Shown here one piece after another: positions 1,806 through 8,196 of a stretch of DNA of 24,000 nucleotides. Origin of the DNA: Variovorax sp. LT1R20 (GTDB taxonomy: Bacteria > Pseudomonadota > Gammaproteobacteria > Burkholderiales > Burkholderiaceae_C); contig NZ_JBPJZG010000006.1 in assembly GCF_051216415.1 (NCBI RefSeq), forward strand, positions 206,601 to 230,600, in the 5' to 3' direction. A program made the translations under genes and the position numbers. Position 1 is the first letter of the stretch, and each line of letters begins with the position of its first letter. Below the pieces are notes generated by a model. It was given only the letters and a program-made list of their open reading frames with translations. It ran no database searches and was not told the origin of the DNA.

Positions 1806-3089
1806 ATGACCCTCGACGATTGCCGCGCGCTCGACGCGCAAGACCCGCTGCGCGCCCTGCGCGATCAATTCACCATTCCTGCCGACGTTCTCTACCTCGA
1901 CGGCAACTCGCTCGGCGTGATGCCCAAGGCGGCGCCCGCACGCATCGCCGAAGTAGTGACCAAGGAATGGGGCGAAGGCCTCATCCGCTCGTGGAACACC
2001 GCGAGCTGGTTCGACCTGCCGCAACGCCTGGGCGACAAGGTGGCCCGGCTCATCGGCGCCGCGCCCGGCGAAGTGGTGTGCACCGACAGCACCTCGGTCA
2101 ATCTCTACAAGGTGCTGTTCGCCGCCCTCTCGCAGCAAAAGGACAGCGGCCGCAAGCTGGTGATCAGCGAGCGCAGCAACTTCCCGACCGACCTCTACAT
2201 CGCCGAATCGCTGTGCCGCGAGCGCGGCTTCACGCTCAAGCTCATCGACGCGAGCGAACTGCAAGGCCCGGATTCGGTGCTGACCGACGAGGTGGCCGTG
2301 CTGATGCTCACGCACGTCAACTACCGCACCGGCGCCATGCACGACATGAAGGCCATCACCGCCGCCGCGCACGCGGTGGGCGCGCTCACGGTGTGGGACC
2401 TCGCGCACAGCGCGGGCGCCGTGCCCGTGGCGCTGAACGACAGCAATGCCGACTACGCGATCGGCTGCGGCTACAAGTACCTGAACGGCGGCCCGGGCGC
2501 ACCGGCCTTCGCATGGGTCAACACCCGGCACGCGGGCCAGTTCGAGCAGCCGCTGTCGGGCTGGTGGGGCCACGCGGCACCCTTCGAGTTCACGCCGCAC
2601 TACCGGCCCGCACCGGGCGTGGGTCGCTACCTCTGCGGCACGCAACCGATCATCGCGCTGGCAGGTCTGGAGTGCGGGCTCGACACGGTGCTCGCCGCCG
2701 AAGCCTTCAACAAGGACCAGGGCGCGATGGCCGCGCTGCGCACGAAGTCGCTCGCGCTCACCGATCTCTTCATCAAGCTGGTCGAAGAACGCTGCGCGGG
2801 ACAAGGCCTCTCGCTCATCACGCCACGCGACCACGCGCAGCGCGGCTCGCAGGTGTGCCTCAGCCGCGACGAAGGCGCCTACGCCATCGTGCAGGCGCTG
2901 ATCGCGCGCGGCGTGATCGGCGACTACCGCGCCGGCGATTCGCAGATGCCCGACATCCTGCGCTTCGGCTTCACGCCGCTGTACATCGGCTTCGAGGATG
3001 TGTGGAACTCGGTCGAACACCTGGTGCAGGTGCTCGAGACGGGCGAGTGGCGACGCGAAGAATTCAACCGCAAGAACGCAGTGACATGA
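1806..3089 (+). CDS. kynU: Kynureninase (PLP-dependent)
   Basis: Kynureninase-like sequence starts at [15 protein letters not shown] (ATG 1806). It includes the [15 protein letters not shown]-lysine region. The 58 upstream codons of the ORF (from 1632) are Pro/Arg-rich and were judged non-coding. Confidence 0.92.
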
Positions 3090-3934
3090 CCGCCGAAAAA
3101 CACACCGAGAACATCGTCCACGAAGAGAAGGCGCAACTGGACTTCAGCAAGTCCATGAGCTACGGCGACTACCTGCACCTGGACGAGATCCTCAACGCCC
3201 AGCACCCGCTCTCGCCCGCGCACGACGAGATGCTGTTCATCGTGCAGCACCAGACCAGCGAGCTCTGGATGAAGCTGATGCTGCACGAGCTGCGCGCAGC
3301 CACCACCTGCATCGCCGATGAGAAGCTGGCCGACGCCTTCAAGAGGCTCGCGCGGGTGAGCCGCATCATGGAACAGCTGGTGAGCGCATGGACCGTGCTC
3401 TCGACCATGACGCCCCCCGAGTACACGGCGATGCGCCCCTACCTCGCCAACTCCAGCGGCTTCCAGAGTGCTCAGTACCGCTGCATCGAGTTCGCGCTCG
3501 GCAACAAGAACGCCGCGATGCTCAAGCCACATGCGCACCGCGCCGATCTGCTCGCGCAGGTCGAGGCGGCCTACCGCTCGCCATCGCTCTACGACGAGTC
3601 GCTGCGCCTCCTCGCGCGCCACGGCCTGCCGGTGCCTGCCGACCGGCTGGAGCGCGACTGGACGCAGCCTTATGAATCGAGCGACGGCGTCGAGGCGGCC
3701 TGGCTCGTGGTCTACCGCAACCCGCACGACCACTGGGACCTGTACCAGCTCGGCGAAAAGCTCACCGACCTCGAAGACGCCTTCCGCCTCTGGCGTTTCC
3801 GCCATGTGACGACCGTCGAACGCGTGATCGGCTTCAAGCGCGGCACCGGCGGCACGGGCGGCGTGAGCTACCTTCGCAAGATGCTCGATGTGGTGCTGTT
3901 CCCCGAGATCTGGAAGCTGCGCACCGACCTCTGA
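3086..3934 (+). CDS. kynA: Tryptophan 2,3-dioxygenase
   Basis: The last 282 aa of the 704-aa ORF ([11 protein letters not shown]...[11 protein letters not shown]) read as TDO. ATG 3086 overlaps the kynU stop (ATGA), which suggests translational coupling. Confidence 0.92.
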
Positions 3935-3941
3935 GCGTCAC

Positions 3942-4255
3942 AGGCCGCGTGCAACAATCGCCGCGGCACCGGACCTTCAAGACTCGACAAGGCAGGCGAT
4001 TCGTCGCTTTCCTTGTGCTGCGGGGCACCCCCGCGGTGGATGGATGGGTACGCATTTCGGCGCGTGAGCGGGACTGCGCTATCGCGCAGCGCAGCTAGCG
4101 CATCACCGGCTGGTTGAAGGGCCGGTTGCCACCTTCGTTCCACTTCACCGCCTTCATGACGCGCGAACCGAGCTACAGGGAATGGATTGCACGCGGCCTC
4201 GCGCATGCCCTGCTGGCCGATGCGAGGCAGCCGGGCGGCACCGCGCCGAATGCGT
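3942..4255 (+). ncRNA. Candidate retron non-coding RNA region (msr-msd-like structured leader); boundaries uncertain
   Basis: A perfect 13-bp inverted repeat joins 3942-3954 (AGGCCGCGTGCAA) to 4187-4199 (TTGCACGCGGCCT). A second long-range pairing joins 4050-4064 to 4242-4255 (14 bp, one bulged T). Local hairpins lie at 3987-4016 (UUCG loop), 4074-4089 and 4105-4126. The region sits immediately 5' of a retron-type RT. No branching G could be assigned with confidence. Confidence 0.3.
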
Positions 4256-5541
4256 TGCGTGCGCGGGCCGAAGCGGCACTGGGCGCCGATCCGCCGTGGC
4301 TGACGCTGCTGGCCGAAGAACTCGGCAAGCGCTCGCTCGCGACATGGGAGCGCACCGATCTTCCCGGGCTGACGCAGGCGATCCTCGACACGCCGGCGCT
4401 GGAGCTGGCCTTCGAACAGGACGAACTGCCCCGCATTCGCCGGCTCATCCTGCGTCCGGCCGACATGCTCCCGCGCCCGATGGGCCTCGACCACTTCGCC
4501 TTGCCTCGGCTGCCCACACTGGCCGATCTCGCGCAGTGGCTCGAACTCGAACCCGACCGCCTCGCGTGGCTCACCGCCGCATCGCAGTCCTTCCGTGCGC
4601 CGGACACATCGAGCCCGCGCCCCGCATCGCACTACCGCTACCAGATGCAGTCCAAGCGCCTCGGCGGCCTGCGGCTGCTCGAGATTCCCAAGGCTGACCT
4701 CAAGCGTGTGCAGCGCCGCATCCTCGACGACCTGCTGCAGCAGATACCGGTGCACGAGGTGGCCCATGGCTTCGTGCAGGAGCGCTCGGTCGCGAGCCAT
4801 GCGGCCGCGCACGTCGGCAAGGATGTGGTGATCGGCTTCGACCTGCGCGATTTCTTTCCCAGCGTTCGCGCATCGCGCGTGCATGCGCTGTGGCGCACGC
4901 TGGGCTATCCCGAAGGCGTGGCGCGCGCGCTCACCGCGCTGTGCACGCACCGCACGTCGACGGCGGTGATCGAGCGCCTTCGCGACGACGGCGGGCTCGA
5001 CTGGATGGGCGCCAAGCGCCTGGCCGAACCGCATCTGCCGCAGGGCTCGCCCTGCTCGCCCGCGCTGGCGAACCTCTGCGCCTTTCGCCTCGACCTGCGG
5101 CTCGAAGGACTGGCGTGGGCCTTCGGCGCCACCTACACGCGCTATGCGGACGACCTCGTGTTCTCGGGTCCTGCGACGCTCCGCGGGCAGTTCAACGCGC
5201 TGCGTGCCTGGGTCGACGGCATCGCTGCCGACGAAGGCTTCGCGTTTCATCCGCGCAAGGTGCGCTGCATGCCGCGGCACCACCAGCAGCGCGTGACGGG
5301 CGTGGTCGTGAACGAGAAGGCGAACACGCCGCGCGTCGACTTCGACCGGCTGAAGGCGGTGCTTCATCAGTGCGTGCTGCACGGCCCCGCAAGCCAGAAC
5401 CGCGCGAAGGTGACCGACTTCCGCGGCCACCTGCTGGGCCACATCGCGTGGATCGGCCAGTTCAATCCGGCGCGCAAGGCAAGGCTGATGCGCCTCTTCG
5501 AACGCATCGAATGGCCAGTCGTCCCGCAATCGGCGGGCTGA
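4156..5541 (+). CDS. Retron-type reverse transcriptase with N-terminal extension
   Basis: The protein is collinear with retron RTs such as Ec86 as I recall them. Shared features are LADLAQWLELEPDRL, YRYQMQSKRLGGLRLLEIP, IGFDLRDFFPS (motif A, from 4834), LPQGSPCSPALANL (5035-5076), YTRYADDLVFS (YADD 5143-5154) and QRVTGVVVN (VTG 5293-5301). The start is uncertain. Candidates are ATG 4156 (given), TTG 4114 (ORF-track start), TTG 4255 and ATG 4465. None has a clear Shine-Dalgarno sequence. Confidence 0.88.
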   Translation: MTREPSYREWIARGLAHALLADARQPGGTAPNALRARAEAALGADPPWLTLLAEELGKRSLATWERTDLPGLTQAILDTPALELAFEQDELPRIRRLILRPADMLPRPMGLDHFALPRLPTLADLAQWLELEPDRLAWLTAASQSFRAPDTSSPRPASHYRYQMQSKRLGGLRLLEIPKADLKRVQRRILDDLLQQIPVHEVAHGFVQERSVASHAAAHVGKDVVIGFDLRDFFPSVRASRVHALWRTLGYPEGVARALTALCTHRTSTAVIERLRDDGGLDWMGAKRLAEPHLPQGSPCSPALANLCAFRLDLRLEGLAWAFGATYTRYADDLVFSGPATLRGQFNALRAWVDGIAADEGFAFHPRKVRCMPRHHQQRVTGVVVNEKANTPRVDFDRLKAVLHQCVLHGPASQNRAKVTDFRGHLLGHIAWIGQFNPARKARLMRLFERIEWPVVPQSAG

Positions 5542-5614
5542 ACGCTCGCATGTACCGGTTGCCACACCCGCGCAAAGCGCTACATTTTTGGCAACAACGA
5601 CGGAGGCTACTGCC

Positions 5615-6865
5615 ATGCACAACATCCGGTTCTCACCCGACGAGATCTCCACCTTGCGGGCACACGGCGTCGTGCTGTTCGCGGATCGCGTGATCTTCGA
5701 TGCGCAGCCGCCGATGCCGGCGCAGCAGATCGCGGCGGTACAGGCCCTCTGCGCCGGACCGATTCCCGAGGCGCTGGTCGCGTTGTGGCAAGAGACGGCG
5801 GGCGGCCGCCTCGACTACGACCTAGCGCTGCCGATGAACGGCAACATCGAAAACGTGAGCTGGTCGGAGCTGTTCTGGGACGGCAGCGACGGCTACCGCG
5901 ACCTGCAGGGCTGGATCGAGCATGAGCAGGCGCTGGCCGAAGACGCCGCCGCCGAGAGCGGCACGCCCTGGAGCGGCAAGATCACCCACCTGCCCTTCGG
6001 CGGCTTCGAGTACCTCGACCGGATCTACACCGTGGTCGAGTCCGGCGAAGCATACGGCCGGGTCATCGCATGGAAGCAGGGCCTGCCGCCGGCCTGGACG
6101 CACGCACTGCACGAAGACACCCTGAGCACCGTCGCGCCGGACCTGCACGGCGCCTTCGCGGCGCTGCACCTGGACGAAGACCCGCTGGCCCCCACGAGCG
6201 ACTACTTCTCGGGCCAGACCCTGCTGCAGTACCTGGACGACCGCCACCAGGACCACGGGCTGGACCTCGACCTGATGGACAAGCTGGTCACCTTCTACTG
6301 CCGCGCGGTGGTCGACTGGCGCACGCCACTGGCGGACGGCACGCTGCGCCATCATCCGGCGCTCGCGCGCGCGGCGCTGCACCACGCGATCGCGACCGAC
6401 GATGCGCAGCTGGTGGCCGAGCTGGCGGCTTCGGGCGTGAGCTTCGACGGGCCGCAGCAGGGCAGCGCCCTCGCGACCGACGTTGCGCTGAGCCAGAGCG
6501 CCTTCGCAGCGGCTGCGGCCCTGGTGCGCGCGGGCGCGCCGGTGGCGGTCGATGCCTTGCGCAGCGTCGATGGCCAGATCGCGCCCGAACTCACGAGCGC
6601 GCTGCTGGCCAACGGCGCCGAGCCGAGCGTGGCAGCCATCGTCAAGTGCGTGGCCTGCGGCGCCCCCGCAAGCGCGCACCTGATCGCCGATGCCTGCACC
6701 GAAGCCGGCATCGACGTGCCGCCGGCCTTTGTCGCGGACCGCGACGCGATGCTGACGGAACTGGAAACGACGTTGGTGAAAGTGCGCGATGGCTCGCTCG
6801 GCCACTACCTCGGGCCGGAAGGCTTGGCGGAACGCATCGAGCACCTGCAGACCTTCAGGCTCTGA
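5615..6865 (+). CDS. SUKH (SMI1/KNR4)-like N-terminal domain plus ankyrin-like C-terminal repeats; putative partner/effector of the RT
   Basis: ATG 5615 is preceded by GGAGG at 5602-5606, whereas the ORF-track start at 5588 lacks an RBS. Residues ~35-190 (nt ~5717-6184) fit the SUKH pattern, including IPEALVALWQETAGGRLDY and LPFGGFEYLDRIYTVVESGEAYGRVIAW. Residues ~245-370 (nt ~6347-6724) contain ANK-like units such as ALHHAIATDDAQLVAELAASGVSFDG. The gene is 73 nt downstream of the RT on the same strand. Domain calls come from pattern memory, not a search. Confidence 0.65.
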   Translation: MHNIRFSPDEISTLRAHGVVLFADRVIFDAQPPMPAQQIAAVQALCAGPIPEALVALWQETAGGRLDYDLALPMNGNIENVSWSELFWDGSDGYRDLQGWIEHEQALAEDAAAESGTPWSGKITHLPFGGFEYLDRIYTVVESGEAYGRVIAWKQGLPPAWTHALHEDTLSTVAPDLHGAFAALHLDEDPLAPTSDYFSGQTLLQYLDDRHQDHGLDLDLMDKLVTFYCRAVVDWRTPLADGTLRHHPALARAALHHAIATDDAQLVAELAASGVSFDGPQQGSALATDVALSQSAFAAAAALVRAGAPVAVDALRSVDGQIAPELTSALLANGAEPSVAAIVKCVACGAPASAHLIADACTEAGIDVPPAFVADRDAMLTELETTLVKVRDGSLGHYLGPEGLAERIEHLQTFRL

Positions 6866-6877
6866 AGGCCGGAGCGC

Positions 6878-8062
6878 TCAACCGCCGTACAGCCAGGGCT
6901 GATCAAGCAACCGCGCACCGAGCGTGCGCATCGCGAGGTCGCGCCCCAGGCGCACAGCGCCGGTGGCATGGAAGACCTCGCCGTTGCGCCGCGCGCGCGC
7001 CTGCACCTGCGCATTGCGCTGCCAGCGCGCCTCGGCGTAGCGCGCGAAGGCTGCGGGCACGTCGGCCGCGGTGCCATCGCCGAGCGCATCGGCCAGTGCG
7101 ACCGCATCCTCGATTGCCATGCCGGCGCCCTGCGCGAGGTACGGCACCATCGGGTGCGCCGCATCGCCCACCAGCGCGACGCGCTCGTGCGCCATGTCGG
7201 CGGCAGAAGTCAACGGCGCGCGGTCGCTGAGCGACCAGGCGCGCCAGCCGGGCATCGCTTCGAGCAGCGCCTGCAGGCCGCCGCCGCTGCGGCCCGTGGC
7301 CTGTTGCAGGGCCGCGATGCTGCTGGACTGGTCCCAATCGCGCGCATCGCCGGCCGGGGCGGATTCGGCGATCACCACCACGTTGAGCCAGTCGCCGCCA
7401 CGCACCGGGTACGCCACGGCGTGGAGATGCGGGCCCAGCCACACATCGACCTGCTGGCGCCGCAGCGCCGCGGGCAAGTCCGCCTGCAAAGCCAGCGCGC
7501 GCCAGGCCGTGTGGCCGGTGACGCGTGGCGGCTCCGCGGCGGAGGGTGTATCGAGTTGCCGCCGCACCAGGCTCCAGAGGCCATCGGCACCCACCAGCGC
7601 CTCGCCCTCCCAGGCGCGGGCGTCGGCGCTCGAGACGCACACGAGGTCGTCGCTGGTCTCGACCTGCCTGATCTGCGCGGCAGTCACCAGCGTACCGATG
7701 CCGCGCGCACGCACCGCTTCGAGCAGCAGTGCATGCAGGTCGGCACGGTGTGCACAGAAGTAAGGAGCGCCGTAGCGTTGCTGCATCGCATCGCCCAGTG
7801 GAAGGCGGGCCAGCACGGCATCGCTGCCGGCGCTGCGGACCACCAATGCGTCCGGGCGCGCCGCGATCTTCGCGAGGCCCGTGCCCAGGTCCAATTGTTG
7901 AAGGCGCCGCGTGACGTTGGGACCGAGCTGCACGCCGGCCCCGATCTCGCCGAAGACCGGCGCCTGCTCGAAGACATCGGCGCGGTGCCGGCCCCGCGAG
8001 AGCGCCAGCGCCGTGGCCAGCCCCCCGATGCCGCCCCCGGCGACGAGGATGTGCGTGGGCAT
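6878..8062 (-). CDS. FAD-dependent aromatic-ring monooxygenase (salicylate/3-hydroxybenzoate hydroxylase-like, UbiH family)
   Basis: The sequence starts MPTHILVAGGGIGGLATALAL (GxGxxG dinucleotide fold). It also has GAGVQLGPN and the C-terminal VALVGDAAHPMVPYLAQGAGMAIEDA FAD fingerprint. ATG at 8062 was chosen over the upstream TTG at 8122. Confidence 0.85.
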   Translation of the reverse strand: MPTHILVAGGGIGGLATALALSRGRHRADVFEQAPVFGEIGAGVQLGPNVTRRLQQLDLGTGLAKIAARPDALVVRSAGSDAVLARLPLGDAMQQRYGAPYFCAHRADLHALLLEAVRARGIGTLVTAAQIRQVETSDDLVCVSSADARAWEGEALVGADGLWSLVRRQLDTPSAAEPPRVTGHTAWRALALQADLPAALRRQQVDVWLGPHLHAVAYPVRGGDWLNVVVIAESAPAGDARDWDQSSSIAALQQATGRSGGGLQALLEAMPGWRAWSLSDRAPLTSAADMAHERVALVGDAAHPMVPYLAQGAGMAIEDAVALADALGDGTAADVPAAFARYAEARWQRNAQVQARARRNGEVFHATGAVRLGRDLAMRTLGARLLDQPWLYGG

Positions 8063-8103
8063 CGGACTCAGAGGCTGGGAGGTAATTCGGCGTGACCGAG
8101 CAG

Positions 8104-8196
8104 CCCCCGCAAATGGCTCCAATCAAGGCGCAAAGCACAGCCATAGCTCGGGCTATGGCGAGCATTTGCAACGCGGAGTGGGGCCATTTGCGGGGG
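8104..8196. repeat. 93-nt imperfect palindrome (long hairpin) in the intergenic region
   Basis: The outer arms 8104-8121 (CCCCCGCAAATGGCTCCA) and 8179-8196 (TGGGGCCATTTGCGGGGG) are complementary at 17/18 positions. The exception is a T:G pair that would be a U.G wobble in a plus-strand RNA. A middle pairing joins GCAAA 8130-8134 to TTTGC 8165-8169. The apical 8-bp stem GCCATAGC 8140-8147 / GCTATGGC 8152-8159 has a TCGG loop. Confidence 0.6.

What the first reader, a model, noticed from the sequence alone, without database searches (positions are those of the whole stretch)
3942..4199. Perfect 13-bp inverted repeat bracketing 258 nt just upstream of the RT: candidate retron a2/a1 stem
Seen in sequence: AGGCCGCGTGCAA (3942-3954) is the exact reverse complement of TTGCACGCGGCCT (4187-4199). 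My rough estimate is that a perfect 13-mer match within a few hundred nt is expected by chance well below once, even allowing for GC bias. Established knowledge: retron msr-msd is bracketed by inverted repeats a2/a1 of about this length (12-13 nt in the E. coli retrons I recall). The RT ORF usually starts some tens of nt after a1. If the RT starts at TTG 4255, the gap would be 56 nt. Two features do not fit. No G directly follows the left arm (the next bases are CAATCG, nearest G at 3960). The right arm also lies inside the longest version of the RT ORF (starts 4114 or 4156). The left arm starts only 8 nt after the kynA stop, and I see no sigma70-like -35/-10 pair. Transcription may therefore depend on read-through from the kyn operon, which would be unusual for a retron.
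Basis: partly seen in the sequence, partly recalled or inferred. Interest (0 to 1): 0.7.

Follow-up and report, generated by a model that had tools for sequence, protein, structure and literature searches.

The report
Retron RNA gene; stem arms misassigned

Summary
The perfect 13-nt inverted repeat (3942-3954 / 4187-4199) exists exactly as described. It is not the retron a2/a1 stem. It survives only in the four or five closest Variovorax relatives, decays there without compensation, and is absent from 13 of 18 homologous loci. Its left arm lies on and just upstream of a positionally conserved -10 promoter box. Its right arm is codons 11-15 of the RT, which starts at ATG 4156.

Nested inside is a roughly 168-nt element (about 3964-4131) conserved upstream of every RT homologue examined: 22 loci from Variovorax, Polaromonas, Albidiferax, Aquabacterium and metagenome contigs. 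Its closing stem is 3965-3980 / 4114-4130, and 6 of the 12 pairs scored in its core show compensatory changes. An invariant G (3981) follows a2 directly and an invariant G (4113) sits opposite. Two msr-type hairpins and one msd-type stem-loop lie inside. a1 ends about 25 nt before the RT start.

The RT is retron-type by PADLOC (RT_other, 5.5e-142), by its closest solved structures (Ec86, Eco2, Eco7 RTs) and by its HAxxH, VTG and YADD motifs. No effector gene is consistently linked, and the downstream SMI1/KNR4 gene also occurs without the RT.

Best reading: an ordinary stand-alone (msr-msd)-RT retron cassette of a kind already described. Interest is low to moderate.

The parts
3942..3954 (+). 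It lies in poorly conserved DNA between the kynA stop and the ncRNA, and its 3' end overlaps the extended -10 region. It is not part of the conserved ncRNA.
   Evidence: I4. Alignment A1. Per-locus arm comparison. Pair counts.
4187..4199 (+). It covers RT codons 11-15 (I-A-R-G-L), and its conservation is explained by protein coding.
   Evidence: translation. W10, I11, A12 and R13 are at least 90% conserved and A16 is invariant; homology starts at residue 1-3 of the ATG-4156 protein.
3950..3958 (+). Candidate extended -10 promoter element, TGcAACAAT. Other loci carry TACAAT, TAGAAT, TAGCAT, TAAGAT or TAGGAT at the same position. The inferred transcription start is about 3964-3966.
   Evidence: a -10-like hexamer sits a similar few bases before the ncRNA 5' end in all 22 loci despite unrelated upstream DNA. 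A3954, A3956, A3957 and T3958 are invariant. The consensus scan found no full -35/-10 pair. The transcription start is inferred, not mapped.
3964..4131 (+). Conserved retron-type ncRNA (msr-msd) core, about 168 nt.
   Evidence: alignment and RNAalifold; model R1 finds it upstream of all 22 RT homologues at E = 1e-14 to 1e-43. (covariation). (z = -3.54, 0 of 200 shuffles fold as well).
3965..3980 (+). a2 arm of the true closing stem. The core is 3968-3980 (ACCGGACCUUCAA), with a GGC extension at 3965-3967.
   Evidence: I5; 6 of the 12 pairs scored (core 3968-3980 / 4114-4126) have compensatory changes and 96.9% of cells pair; the extension covaries, GGC/GCC in Variovorax against GAC/GUC in Polaromonas.
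3981..3981 (+). Invariant G immediately 3' of a2. This is the candidate branching (priming) guanosine.
   Evidence: A80, A81 and G82 invariant. (G in all 22 loci). The role is inferred from retron biology and was not tested.
3987..4016 (+). msr hairpin 1: CAAGGC/AGGCGA, a UUCG loop, then UCGCUU/UCCUUG.
   Evidence: MFE; inner helix GCGA/UCGC is kept and 2 of 4 pairs are compensated. By inspection of the alignment, the outer part changes to GCGGGAC/GUCCGC in Polaromonas; this was not counted formally.
4017..4037 (+). msr hairpin 2: GCUGCGGGG, a CAC loop, then CCCCGCGGU.
   Evidence: 9 bp, 99.5% of cells paired, with CGCGGGG/CCCCGCG replaced by CAUGGGG/CCCCAUG in Polaromonas.
4058..4112 (+). msd-type stem-loop, the candidate template for reverse transcription. 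The exact msDNA ends are unknown.
   Evidence: (helices 5-7). The assignment as msd is inferred from its position between msr and a1.
4113..4113 (+). Invariant G immediately 5' of a1, opposite G3981. This is the 'two opposing G' feature of retron ncRNAs.
   Evidence: G in all 22 loci. The feature is described in the legend of Figure 2B of PMC7736814.
4114..4130 (+). a1 arm of the true closing stem: UUGAAGGGCCGG(U)UGCC.
   Evidence: (I5).
4156..5541 (+). Retron-type reverse transcriptase, 461 aa. It has a roughly 150-aa N-terminal extension, whose first ~100 residues are modelled as a helical bundle, and carries region X HAAAH, YADD and region Y VTG.
   Evidence: PADLOC RT_other 5.5e-142, RT_outgroup 1.8e-134, RT_XIII 2e-94. 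(NCBIfam retron RT families); the best solved-structure matches are the Ec86, Eco2 and Eco7 RTs. (motif invariance). (model).
5615..6865 (+). SMI1/KNR4 (SUKH)-family gene, 416 aa. It is a neighbour and probably not a dedicated retron component.
   Evidence: weak PF09346 match. (sources name it SMI1/KNR4); it is intact in genomes where the RT is deleted (L018, L019) or missing (L029, L028). It is absent next to the RT in the other genera.

Best explanation
The locus is a stand-alone retron cassette: promoter, msr-msd ncRNA, then RT. In the Variovorax lineage it sits between kynA and an SMI1/KNR4 gene.

Inferred mechanism:
1. Transcription starts near 3964-3966 from a conserved -10 element.
2. 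The RNA closes on itself through the a2/a1 stem 3965-3980 / 4114-4130.
3. The RT, translated from ATG 4156 on the same transcript, recognises the two msr hairpins (3987-4016 and 4017-4037).
4. The RT primes from the 2'-OH of G3981 and copies the msd stem-loop leftwards from about 4112. This would give a branched msDNA of roughly 50-65 nt.

A fast-evolving promoter-proximal spacer happens to match a protein-constrained stretch of the RT gene. It is not part of the retron RNA architecture.

Shown here: the repeat itself, its lack of conservation, the nested covarying structure, the invariant Gs, the retron-type RT and the lack of a conserved effector. Inferred: the transcription start, the priming at G3981, the msDNA extent and any defence role.
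For: - Nested stem: RNAalifold places the closing helix at 3968-3980 / 4114-4126. Over 22 loci, 96.9% of cells pair and 6 of 12 pairs carry compensatory changes. The whole-structure covariation score is 0.250 against 0.154 in shuffles (0 of 500 reach it) and at most 0.095 when partners are slid.
- Reach of the element: a covariance model built only from Variovorax and Polaromonas finds it directly upstream of the RT in Albidiferax, Aquabacterium and two metagenome lineages (56-66% aa identity) at E = 1e-14 to 1e-23. The arm sequences differ there but still pair.
- Invariant Gs: G3981 after a2 and G4113 before a1 are present in 22 of 22 loci.
- Promoter: the -10 hexamer is positionally conserved in 22 of 22 loci with unrelated upstream DNA.
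- RT start: homology begins at residue 1-3 of the ATG-4156 protein, the N-terminal motif is conserved, and the stretch just upstream of the ATG is rich in indels.
- RT family.
- Outer repeat not conserved.
- Precedent: stand-alone (msr-msd)-RT cassettes are described for RT clade 11 and a branch of clade 2 in PMC7736814. Clade 11-A is enriched in Pseudomonadota according to the bioRxiv preprint 10.64898/2026.05.14.725207.
Against: - No transcript ends and no msDNA were measured.
- No full sigma-70 -35/-10 pair was found by the consensus scan. The window's own -10 is the weaker AACAAT.
- The msd-type stem is short and imperfect compared with classic retrons.
- No Rfam family matched.
- Alignment A3 was fitted to the model, which inflates the pairing counts somewhat. 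The independent MAFFT/RNAalifold run nevertheless shows the same compensated pairs.
- No effector was found, so the biological output is unknown.
- The RT ORF is frameshifted in L014 and L016 and deleted in L018 and L019. The element is therefore dispensable in some lineages.
- Within the closest clade, left-arm bases 3944-3954 are invariant, so a lineage-specific role for the outer repeat cannot be fully excluded.
Confidence: 0.85

Rival explanations
1. One reading: the 13-nt repeat 3942-3954 / 4187-4199 is the functional a2/a1 stem, or an outer extension of it, of a 258-nt msr-msd. The RNA would be transcribed by read-through from kynA, with a1 overlapping the RT coding region.
For: The repeat is perfect and locally improbable (1.6% of local shuffles). 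It brackets the conserved ncRNA, and both RNAfold runs use it as the closing helix. No terminator-like site lies between kynA and the element. It is retained at 11-13 nt in L001, L002 and L016.
Against: It is absent from 13 of 18 homologous loci. Only 57.7% of cells pair, and 7 of 13 pairs depart only by unpaired cells. In L014 the right arm changed (GGC to AGT) with no compensating change on the left. No G follows the left arm. The left arm overlaps the conserved -10 element, so it would lie upstream of the transcription start. The right arm is explained by a conserved peptide motif. In the other genera, and in L005 and L009, the cassette is not preceded by kynA. Window-wide, such repeats are expected by chance in 46% of shuffles.
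Confidence: 0.05
2. The outer 13-nt repeat is a lineage-specific regulatory add-on. In kynA read-through transcripts it would clamp the whole ncRNA and RT codons 11-15 into a long-range helix, and so modulate RT translation or ncRNA processing in this Variovorax subclade only.
For: Bases 3944-3954 are invariant among the five closest loci, whereas 3935-3943 vary. No terminator separates kynA from the element. The window holds more perfect long-range repeats than shuffles predict, 4 against 0.67.
Against: Only five closely related sequences are available (RT 90-94% identical), so invariance carries little weight. The invariant bases also coincide with the promoter spacer and extended -10. The pairing is eroding at its outer end and in L014. 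A helix that starts 31 nt into the ORF is poorly placed to block initiation; this last point is inference.
Confidence: 0.07
3. The conserved upstream element is not an msr-msd template. It would be a structured 5' leader that regulates or recruits the RT without being reverse-transcribed, as in non-canonical RT systems that make little or no msDNA at rest.
For: The msd-type stem is short. There is no Shine-Dalgarno sequence before ATG 4156. No effector is linked. Some retron clades give no detectable RT-DNA when tested (PMC10849725). Type VI retrons are reported not to make msDNA constitutively (abstract of 10.1101/2025.10.22.683967).
Against: The element carries the full canonical retron layout: a closing a2/a1 stem, an unpaired invariant G after a2, an opposing invariant G, two 5' hairpins and a 3' stem-loop. 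The RT keeps its catalytic YADD and the retron X and Y motifs.
Confidence: 0.1

Closest known systems
Stand-alone (msr-msd)-RT retron cassettes: RT clade 11, and a branch of clade 2, in Mestre et al. 2020 (PMC7736814). These are the clade11-A and clade11-B groups of the 2026 SPIRE survey.
   Same: A retron-type RT has a canonical-looking msr-msd immediately upstream and no recurrent accessory gene. Clade 11-A is reported as enriched in Pseudomonadota. The RT's best PADLOC models are the untyped retron models RT_other and RT_outgroup, not any of types I-XIII.
   Different: Clade membership could not be checked, because neither the Mestre reference tree nor the clade-11 covariance models were available. 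Mestre et al. describe clade 11 as essentially restricted to Actinobacteria, whereas this lineage is Burkholderiales. Here the cassette is syntenic across many Variovorax species.
Type XIII retrons (RT clade 10; Mx162, Mx65, Ne144, Sa163)
   Same: It is the best-scoring typed RT model (RT_XIII 2e-94). The inheritance pattern looks vertical. From my own recollection, not checked here, Mx162 RT is also a long RT with an N-terminal extension.
   Different: The defining SWIM Zn-finger/winged-helix protein and the HEAT/ARM partner are absent. The neighbours give no PADLOC hit, and Pfam shows only a weak SUKH match. RT_XIII scores about 155 bits below RT_other. From recollection, not checked here, the ncRNA is also much smaller than Mx162's.
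Retron-Eco1 (Ec86), type II-A3, the structurally best-known retron
   Same: It is the closest solved RT by sequence (1.4e-30) and by fold (Foldseek 3e-14). The ncRNA logic is the same: an a2/a1 closing stem of about 12-16 bp, a branching G directly after a2, a G opposite, and an RT start a few tens of nt after a1. The Ec86 details are from my own recollection, not checked here.
   Different: There is no NDT/DNA-binding effector. The RT carries an extra N-terminal extension of about 150 aa. Region X reads HAxxH rather than NAxxH. There is no detectable ncRNA sequence similarity and no Rfam match.

Membership tests
Retron (msr-msd ncRNA + retron RT) | [quoted passage not shown] | tested here: met
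   PADLOC retron RT models reach 5.5e-142. The top 18 fold matches and all 14 sequence matches to solved structures are retron RTs. YADD, T381-G382 (VTG) and H215-A216-x-x-H219 are invariant in 18 homologues. The first residue of region X is H rather than N.
Retron (msr-msd ncRNA + retron RT) | A structured ncRNA gene contiguous with the RT gene and on the same strand | tested here: met
   A conserved 168-180-nt element ends about 10-30 nt before the RT start in all 22 loci.
   Only 57.7% of cells pair over 18 loci. Seven of 13 pairs depart only by unpaired cells. The pair is present only in the closest clade.
Retron (msr-msd ncRNA + retron RT) | Terminal inverted repeats a2/a1 that close the ncRNA and are maintained in relatives, tested on the nested pair 3965-3980 / 4114-4130 | tested here: met
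   96.9% of cells pair, and 6 of the 12 scored pairs (core 3968-3980 / 4114-4126) have compensatory changes. The GGC/GCC extension covaries to GAC/GUC.
Retron (msr-msd ncRNA + retron RT) | A conserved unpaired G immediately 3' of a2 (branching G), with an opposing G 5' of a1 | tested here: met
G3981 and G4113 are invariant in 22 of 22 loci.
Retron (msr-msd ncRNA + retron RT) | One to three msr hairpins followed by an msd stem-loop inside the closing stem | tested here: met
   The hairpins are 3987-4016 and 4017-4037, and the stem-loop is 4058-4112. The msd stem is short and imperfect.
Retron (msr-msd ncRNA + retron RT) | Production of branched msDNA with a 2'-5' linkage | not testable with these tools
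   This needs msDNA purification and sequencing.
Retron (msr-msd ncRNA + retron RT) | A third component: an effector gene or a fused effector domain | tested here: not met
   No neighbour is shared across genera. The SMI1/KNR4 gene is present without the RT in L018, L019, L028 and L029. No C-terminal fusion was found; only RVT_1 is detected. This matches the published stand-alone cassettes.
Type XIII retron (clade 10) | A linked SWIM Zn-finger/winged-helix protein, usually with a HEAT/ARM-repeat partner | tested here: not met
   The neighbouring ORFs give no PADLOC hit and no SWIM Pfam hit.
Type XIII retron (clade 10) | An RT best matched by the type XIII model | tested here: not met
   RT_XIII scores 315 bits, against 472 for RT_other and 447 for RT_outgroup.
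Clade 11 stand-alone retrons (Mestre 2020) | An RT that falls in clade 11 of the reference phylogeny | not testable with these tools
   The reference sequences and tree are not held; the paper's supplements are unavailable.
Clade 11 stand-alone retrons (Mestre 2020) | An ncRNA that matches the clade 11-A or 11-B covariance model | not testable with these tools
   The models are not available here. Rfam has no matching family.
Clade 11 stand-alone retrons (Mestre 2020) | [quoted passage not shown] | tested here: met

The most novel reading that the evidence does not exclude
This Burkholderiales RT lineage could be a domesticated, largely vertically inherited retron that works without any dedicated effector gene. 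Its conserved N-terminal extension of about 150 aa would act as sensor or effector, or in Variovorax the resident SMI1/KNR4-repeat neighbour would have been co-opted. In this subclade the perfect 13-nt repeat would couple the element to read-through from the tryptophan-catabolic kyn operon. None of this is excluded by the data, and none of it is supported beyond synteny and the absence of a conserved effector.
Probability: 0.08. Interest if true: 0.55.

Novelty: new member of a known kind. Interest (0 to 1): 0.25.

Why it matters
The result gives correct coordinates for a retron ncRNA in a poorly studied group, the effector-less retron RTs of Burkholderiales: a2/a1, the candidate branching G and the msd. 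It also provides a covariance model that finds the element across at least four genera.

Stand-alone retrons are the least understood retron class. It is not known what they do without a toxin partner. A chromosomally stable example with natural RT-deleted and frameshifted siblings (L018, L019, L014, L016) is a convenient system for asking that question.

For annotation practice, the case shows that the longest perfect inverted repeat near a retron RT is not necessarily a2/a1. Covariation is needed to assign the arms, not perfection of the repeat.

Tried and rejected
- Rfam. Scans of 3000-7500 and 3900-4250 at E up to 10 gave only chance-level hits and no retron or msr family.
- Sigma-70 and terminator consensus scan of 3700-4400. 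Nothing was found. The promoter call therefore rests on positional conservation of the -10 hexamer only.
- Alternative RT starts. TTG 4114 was rejected because it coincides with the a1 arm, the stretch 4137-4152 is rich in indels and unconserved, and homology starts at ATG 4156. TTG 4255 was rejected because residues 1-33 upstream of it are conserved as protein.
- SMI1/KNR4 gene as retron effector. This was considered and judged unlikely. The gene is absent next to the RT outside Variovorax. It is present without the RT in four loci, at least one of which (L029) keeps its conserved upstream region. It gives no PADLOC hit.
- Type XIII membership. Rejected, because there is no SWIM or HEAT partner and the HMM score is lower.
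- Mestre et al. supplementary tables, to look up the clade of Variovorax RTs. They are not held.
- Full-length RT structure model. It has mean pLDDT 72 and confirms a retron RT fold. The N-terminal helical domain was not searched separately.
- Metagenome-contig scan and the 1.84-billion-representative protein search. Neither was run, because 22 loci already gave clear covariation.

Full report
**1. Observation**

The window carries AGGCCGCGTGCAA at 3942-3954 and its exact reverse complement TTGCACGCGGCCT at 4187-4199, with 232 nt between the arms (pair I4).
- The kynA stop (TGA 3932-3934; TIGR03036 and PF03301 matches) lies 8 nt before the left arm.
- The bases after the left arm are CAATCG.
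- The right arm is inside the RT ORF.

A perfect repeat of at least 13 nt with arms at most 400 nt apart appears in 1.6% of dinucleotide shuffles of the local 800 nt. Over the whole 24-kb window (68% G+C) it appears in 46% of shuffles (mean 0.67). The real window has four such repeats. The repeat is real, but it is only moderately surprising for a reader who scanned the whole window.

**2. The ORF**

ORF 4114/4156-5541 is a retron-type reverse transcriptase.
- PADLOC gives RT_other 5.5e-142, RT_outgroup ('retron') 1.8e-134 and RT_XIII 2e-94, followed by many other retron RT models.
- NCBIfam's best hits are retron St85 and Ec67 family RTs, below their cut-offs.
- All 14 sequence matches to solved structures are retron RTs, led by Ec86 at 1.4e-30.
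- An AlphaFold model (mean pLDDT 72) has retron RTs as its top 18 Foldseek matches in the PDB.
- Across 18 homologues, YADD, the VTG triplet of region Y and an H-A-x-x-H version of region X (NAxxH) are invariant (the motifs are defined in PMC7736814).

The true start is ATG 4156. Homology to Polaromonas proteins of 60% identity begins at residue 3. W10, I11, A12 and R13 are nearly invariant. The DNA just upstream (4137-4152) is unconserved and full of indels.

**3.

One genome scan returned 17 full-length homologous loci from Variovorax and Polaromonas. Eight more loci came from four RT proteins from Albidiferax, Aquabacterium and metagenome contigs, two loci per protein.

The 13-nt pairing fares as follows.
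- It is perfect only in the window and L001.
- It is 12 nt in L016 and 11-12 nt in L002.
- In L014 it is degraded by one mismatch and one wobble, with no compensating change.
- It is absent (2-7 of 13 positions pairing) in the other 13 aligned loci.

Counted formally, 57.7% of cells pair and 7 of 13 pairs depart only by unpaired cells. The left arm falls in DNA that is otherwise unalignable between species.

**4. What is conserved instead**

Alignment A1 shows a block from about 3952 to 4135 that is far better conserved than the flanks.

RNAalifold closes this block with the nested repeat 3968-3980 / 4114-4126, which is pair I5. A covariance model built from the Variovorax and Polaromonas sequences (R1) then found the element immediately upstream of the RT in every more distant locus, at E = 1e-14 to 1e-23. 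The arm sequences there are different but still complementary. Examples are GCCAGCGCGCCAA/UUGGCGCGCUGGU and GUCGGCCCUUCGA/UCGAGGGGCCGGC.

Over 22 loci the closing helix pairs in 96.9% of cells, and 6 of its 12 pairs carry compensatory changes. The whole structure has a covariation score of 0.250, against 0.154 in shuffles (0 of 500 reach it) and at most 0.095 when partners are slid. That alignment was fitted to the model, but the independent MAFFT run shows the same compensations. A three-pair extension also covaries: GGC/GCC in Variovorax becomes GAC/GUC in Polaromonas.

A G directly after a2 (3981) and a G directly before a1 (4113) are invariant in all 22 loci. This is the 'two opposing G' arrangement drawn for retron ncRNAs in PMC7736814.

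Inside the stem lie these elements.
- A hairpin with a UUCG loop at 3987-4016.
- A 9-bp GC-rich hairpin at 4017-4037, which covaries from CGCGGGG/CCCCGCG to CAUGGGG/CCCCAUG.
- A short predicted hairpin at 4042-4057, which is less well supported.
- A 3' stem-loop at 4058-4112.

a1 ends about 25 nt before ATG 4156.

**5. Promoter**

The consensus scan finds no full -35/-10 pair. However, a -10-like hexamer sits a similar few bases before the first paired bases of the ncRNA in all 22 loci, although the DNA upstream of it is unrelated between contexts. The hexamer is TACAAT in most Variovorax, TAGAAT in Polaromonas and Albidiferax, and TAGCAT, TAAGAT or TAGGAT elsewhere.

The window's clade has AACAAT preceded by TG at the extended -10 position. 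The inferred transcription start is about 3964-3966, which would leave the left arm untranscribed unless kynA transcripts read through. Read-through is possible, since there is no terminator-like site, but it is not needed. In Polaromonas, Albidiferax, Aquabacterium and the metagenome loci the cassette follows unrelated genes. In L005 and L009 extra DNA separates kynA from it; in L005 this carries a 397-aa gene on the opposite strand.

**6. Third component**

The downstream 416-aa gene (5615-6865; SD GGAGG at 5602-5606) is an SMI1/KNR4 (SUKH) family protein according to its database names and a weak Pfam match.

It follows the RT in all Variovorax loci that carry the RT. It is nevertheless unlikely to be a dedicated retron component, for these reasons.
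- It is intact where the ncRNA and about 420 RT codons have been deleted (L018, L019).
- It follows kynA directly in Variovorax sp. PAMC 28711 (L029), where its upstream sequence resembles the one in the window.
- It sits in an unrelated context without an RT in Rhizobacter (L028).

No homologue lies next to the RT in the other genera, and no other neighbour recurs. [quoted passage not shown] It is consistent with the best PADLOC models being the untyped retron RT models. Type XIII is excluded because its SWIM/winged-helix and HEAT/ARM partners are absent. I could not place the RT in the reference phylogeny or run the published clade-11 ncRNA models, so clade membership stays open.

**7. Mechanism (inferred)**

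The RNA is transcribed from its own promoter and folds through a2/a1. The RT binds the msr hairpins, primes on the 2'-OH of G3981 and copies the msd stem-loop from about 4112 leftwards. The product would be a branched msDNA of roughly 50-65 nt. What the msDNA-RT complex does without a linked effector is unknown.

The cassette is syntenic across at least 15 Variovorax species-level genomes. It is also frameshifted in two of them (L014, a MAG, and L016) and deleted in two others, so it is dispensable.

**8. The 13-nt repeat itself**

The most economical reading is a recent match between a fast-evolving spacer and a coding stretch that cannot change freely. The match was inherited by a small clade and is already eroding. 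A lineage-specific regulatory role in read-through transcripts cannot be excluded with only five close sequences, but nothing supports it.

**9. Verdict**

There is a retron ncRNA, but the arms were misassigned. This is a new member of a known kind, the stand-alone retron cassette. Interest is low to moderate.

Noticed in passing
L018:3934-4117 and L019:3944-4123 (equivalent to window 3935-5541): In V. boronicumulans CC172 and Variovorax sp. 770b2, the ncRNA and about 420 RT codons are replaced by roughly 50 nt (CGCTTGGTTGTTAGACCATCCATAGTCCAACAGATTGTTGGAC) that carry their own small inverted repeat. Only the last ~40 RT codons remain, and the SMI1/KNR4 gene is intact. This may be a scar of a mobile-element event.
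   Followed up: partly
L014:4640-4650 and L016:4767-4786: The RT ORF changes frame once in each of these two close relatives; L014 is a MAG and L016 is Variovorax sp. IB41. This is either pseudogenisation or assembly error.
   Followed up: partly
L005:2593-3786 (minus strand), between kynA and the retron; similar extra DNA in L009: About 1.3 kb of extra DNA separates kynA from the retron. In L005 it encodes a 397-aa protein that I recognise by eye as resembling YhcG/DUF1016 PDDEXK nucleases; no family search was run. The kynA-retron junction may be an insertion hot spot.
   Followed up: no
window 1754-1768/1989-2003, 8104-8117/8183-8196, 11252-11267/11539-11554: Three further perfect long-range inverted repeats of 15, 14 and 16 nt lie in the window. 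Four in total were observed, against 0.67 expected from dinucleotide shuffles. The 8104-8196 pair lies near the 5' end of the minus-strand monooxygenase gene.
   Followed up: no
window 5568-5598: A hairpin-like GGTTGCCA...TTTTTGGCAAC lies just upstream of the SD of the SMI1/KNR4 gene. A related motif is present in the RT-less locus L029, which suggests that this gene has its own control region.
   Followed up: no
window 4132-4155 and the equivalent stretch in all loci: No Shine-Dalgarno sequence precedes the RT start in any genus; the leader is C/U-rich and variable in length. RT translation may be intrinsically weak or unconventional.
   Followed up: no
window 4156-4620 (RT residues 1-~155): The RT has a conserved N-terminal extension. 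Its first ~100 residues are modelled confidently as a helical bundle (pLDDT 82-94). It has no Pfam match. It was not searched separately against structure libraries.
   Followed up: partly
L026:5359-5967: In one metagenome relative, a 202-aa TPR-repeat ORF overlaps the RT stop codon on the same strand. It is the only candidate co-transcribed partner seen outside Variovorax.
   Followed up: partly
window 6878-8122 (minus strand): An FAD-dependent monooxygenase, closest to 3-hydroxybenzoate 6-monooxygenase in NCBIfam but below the cut-off, converges on the SMI1/KNR4 gene. It is syntenic throughout Variovorax.
   Followed up: no
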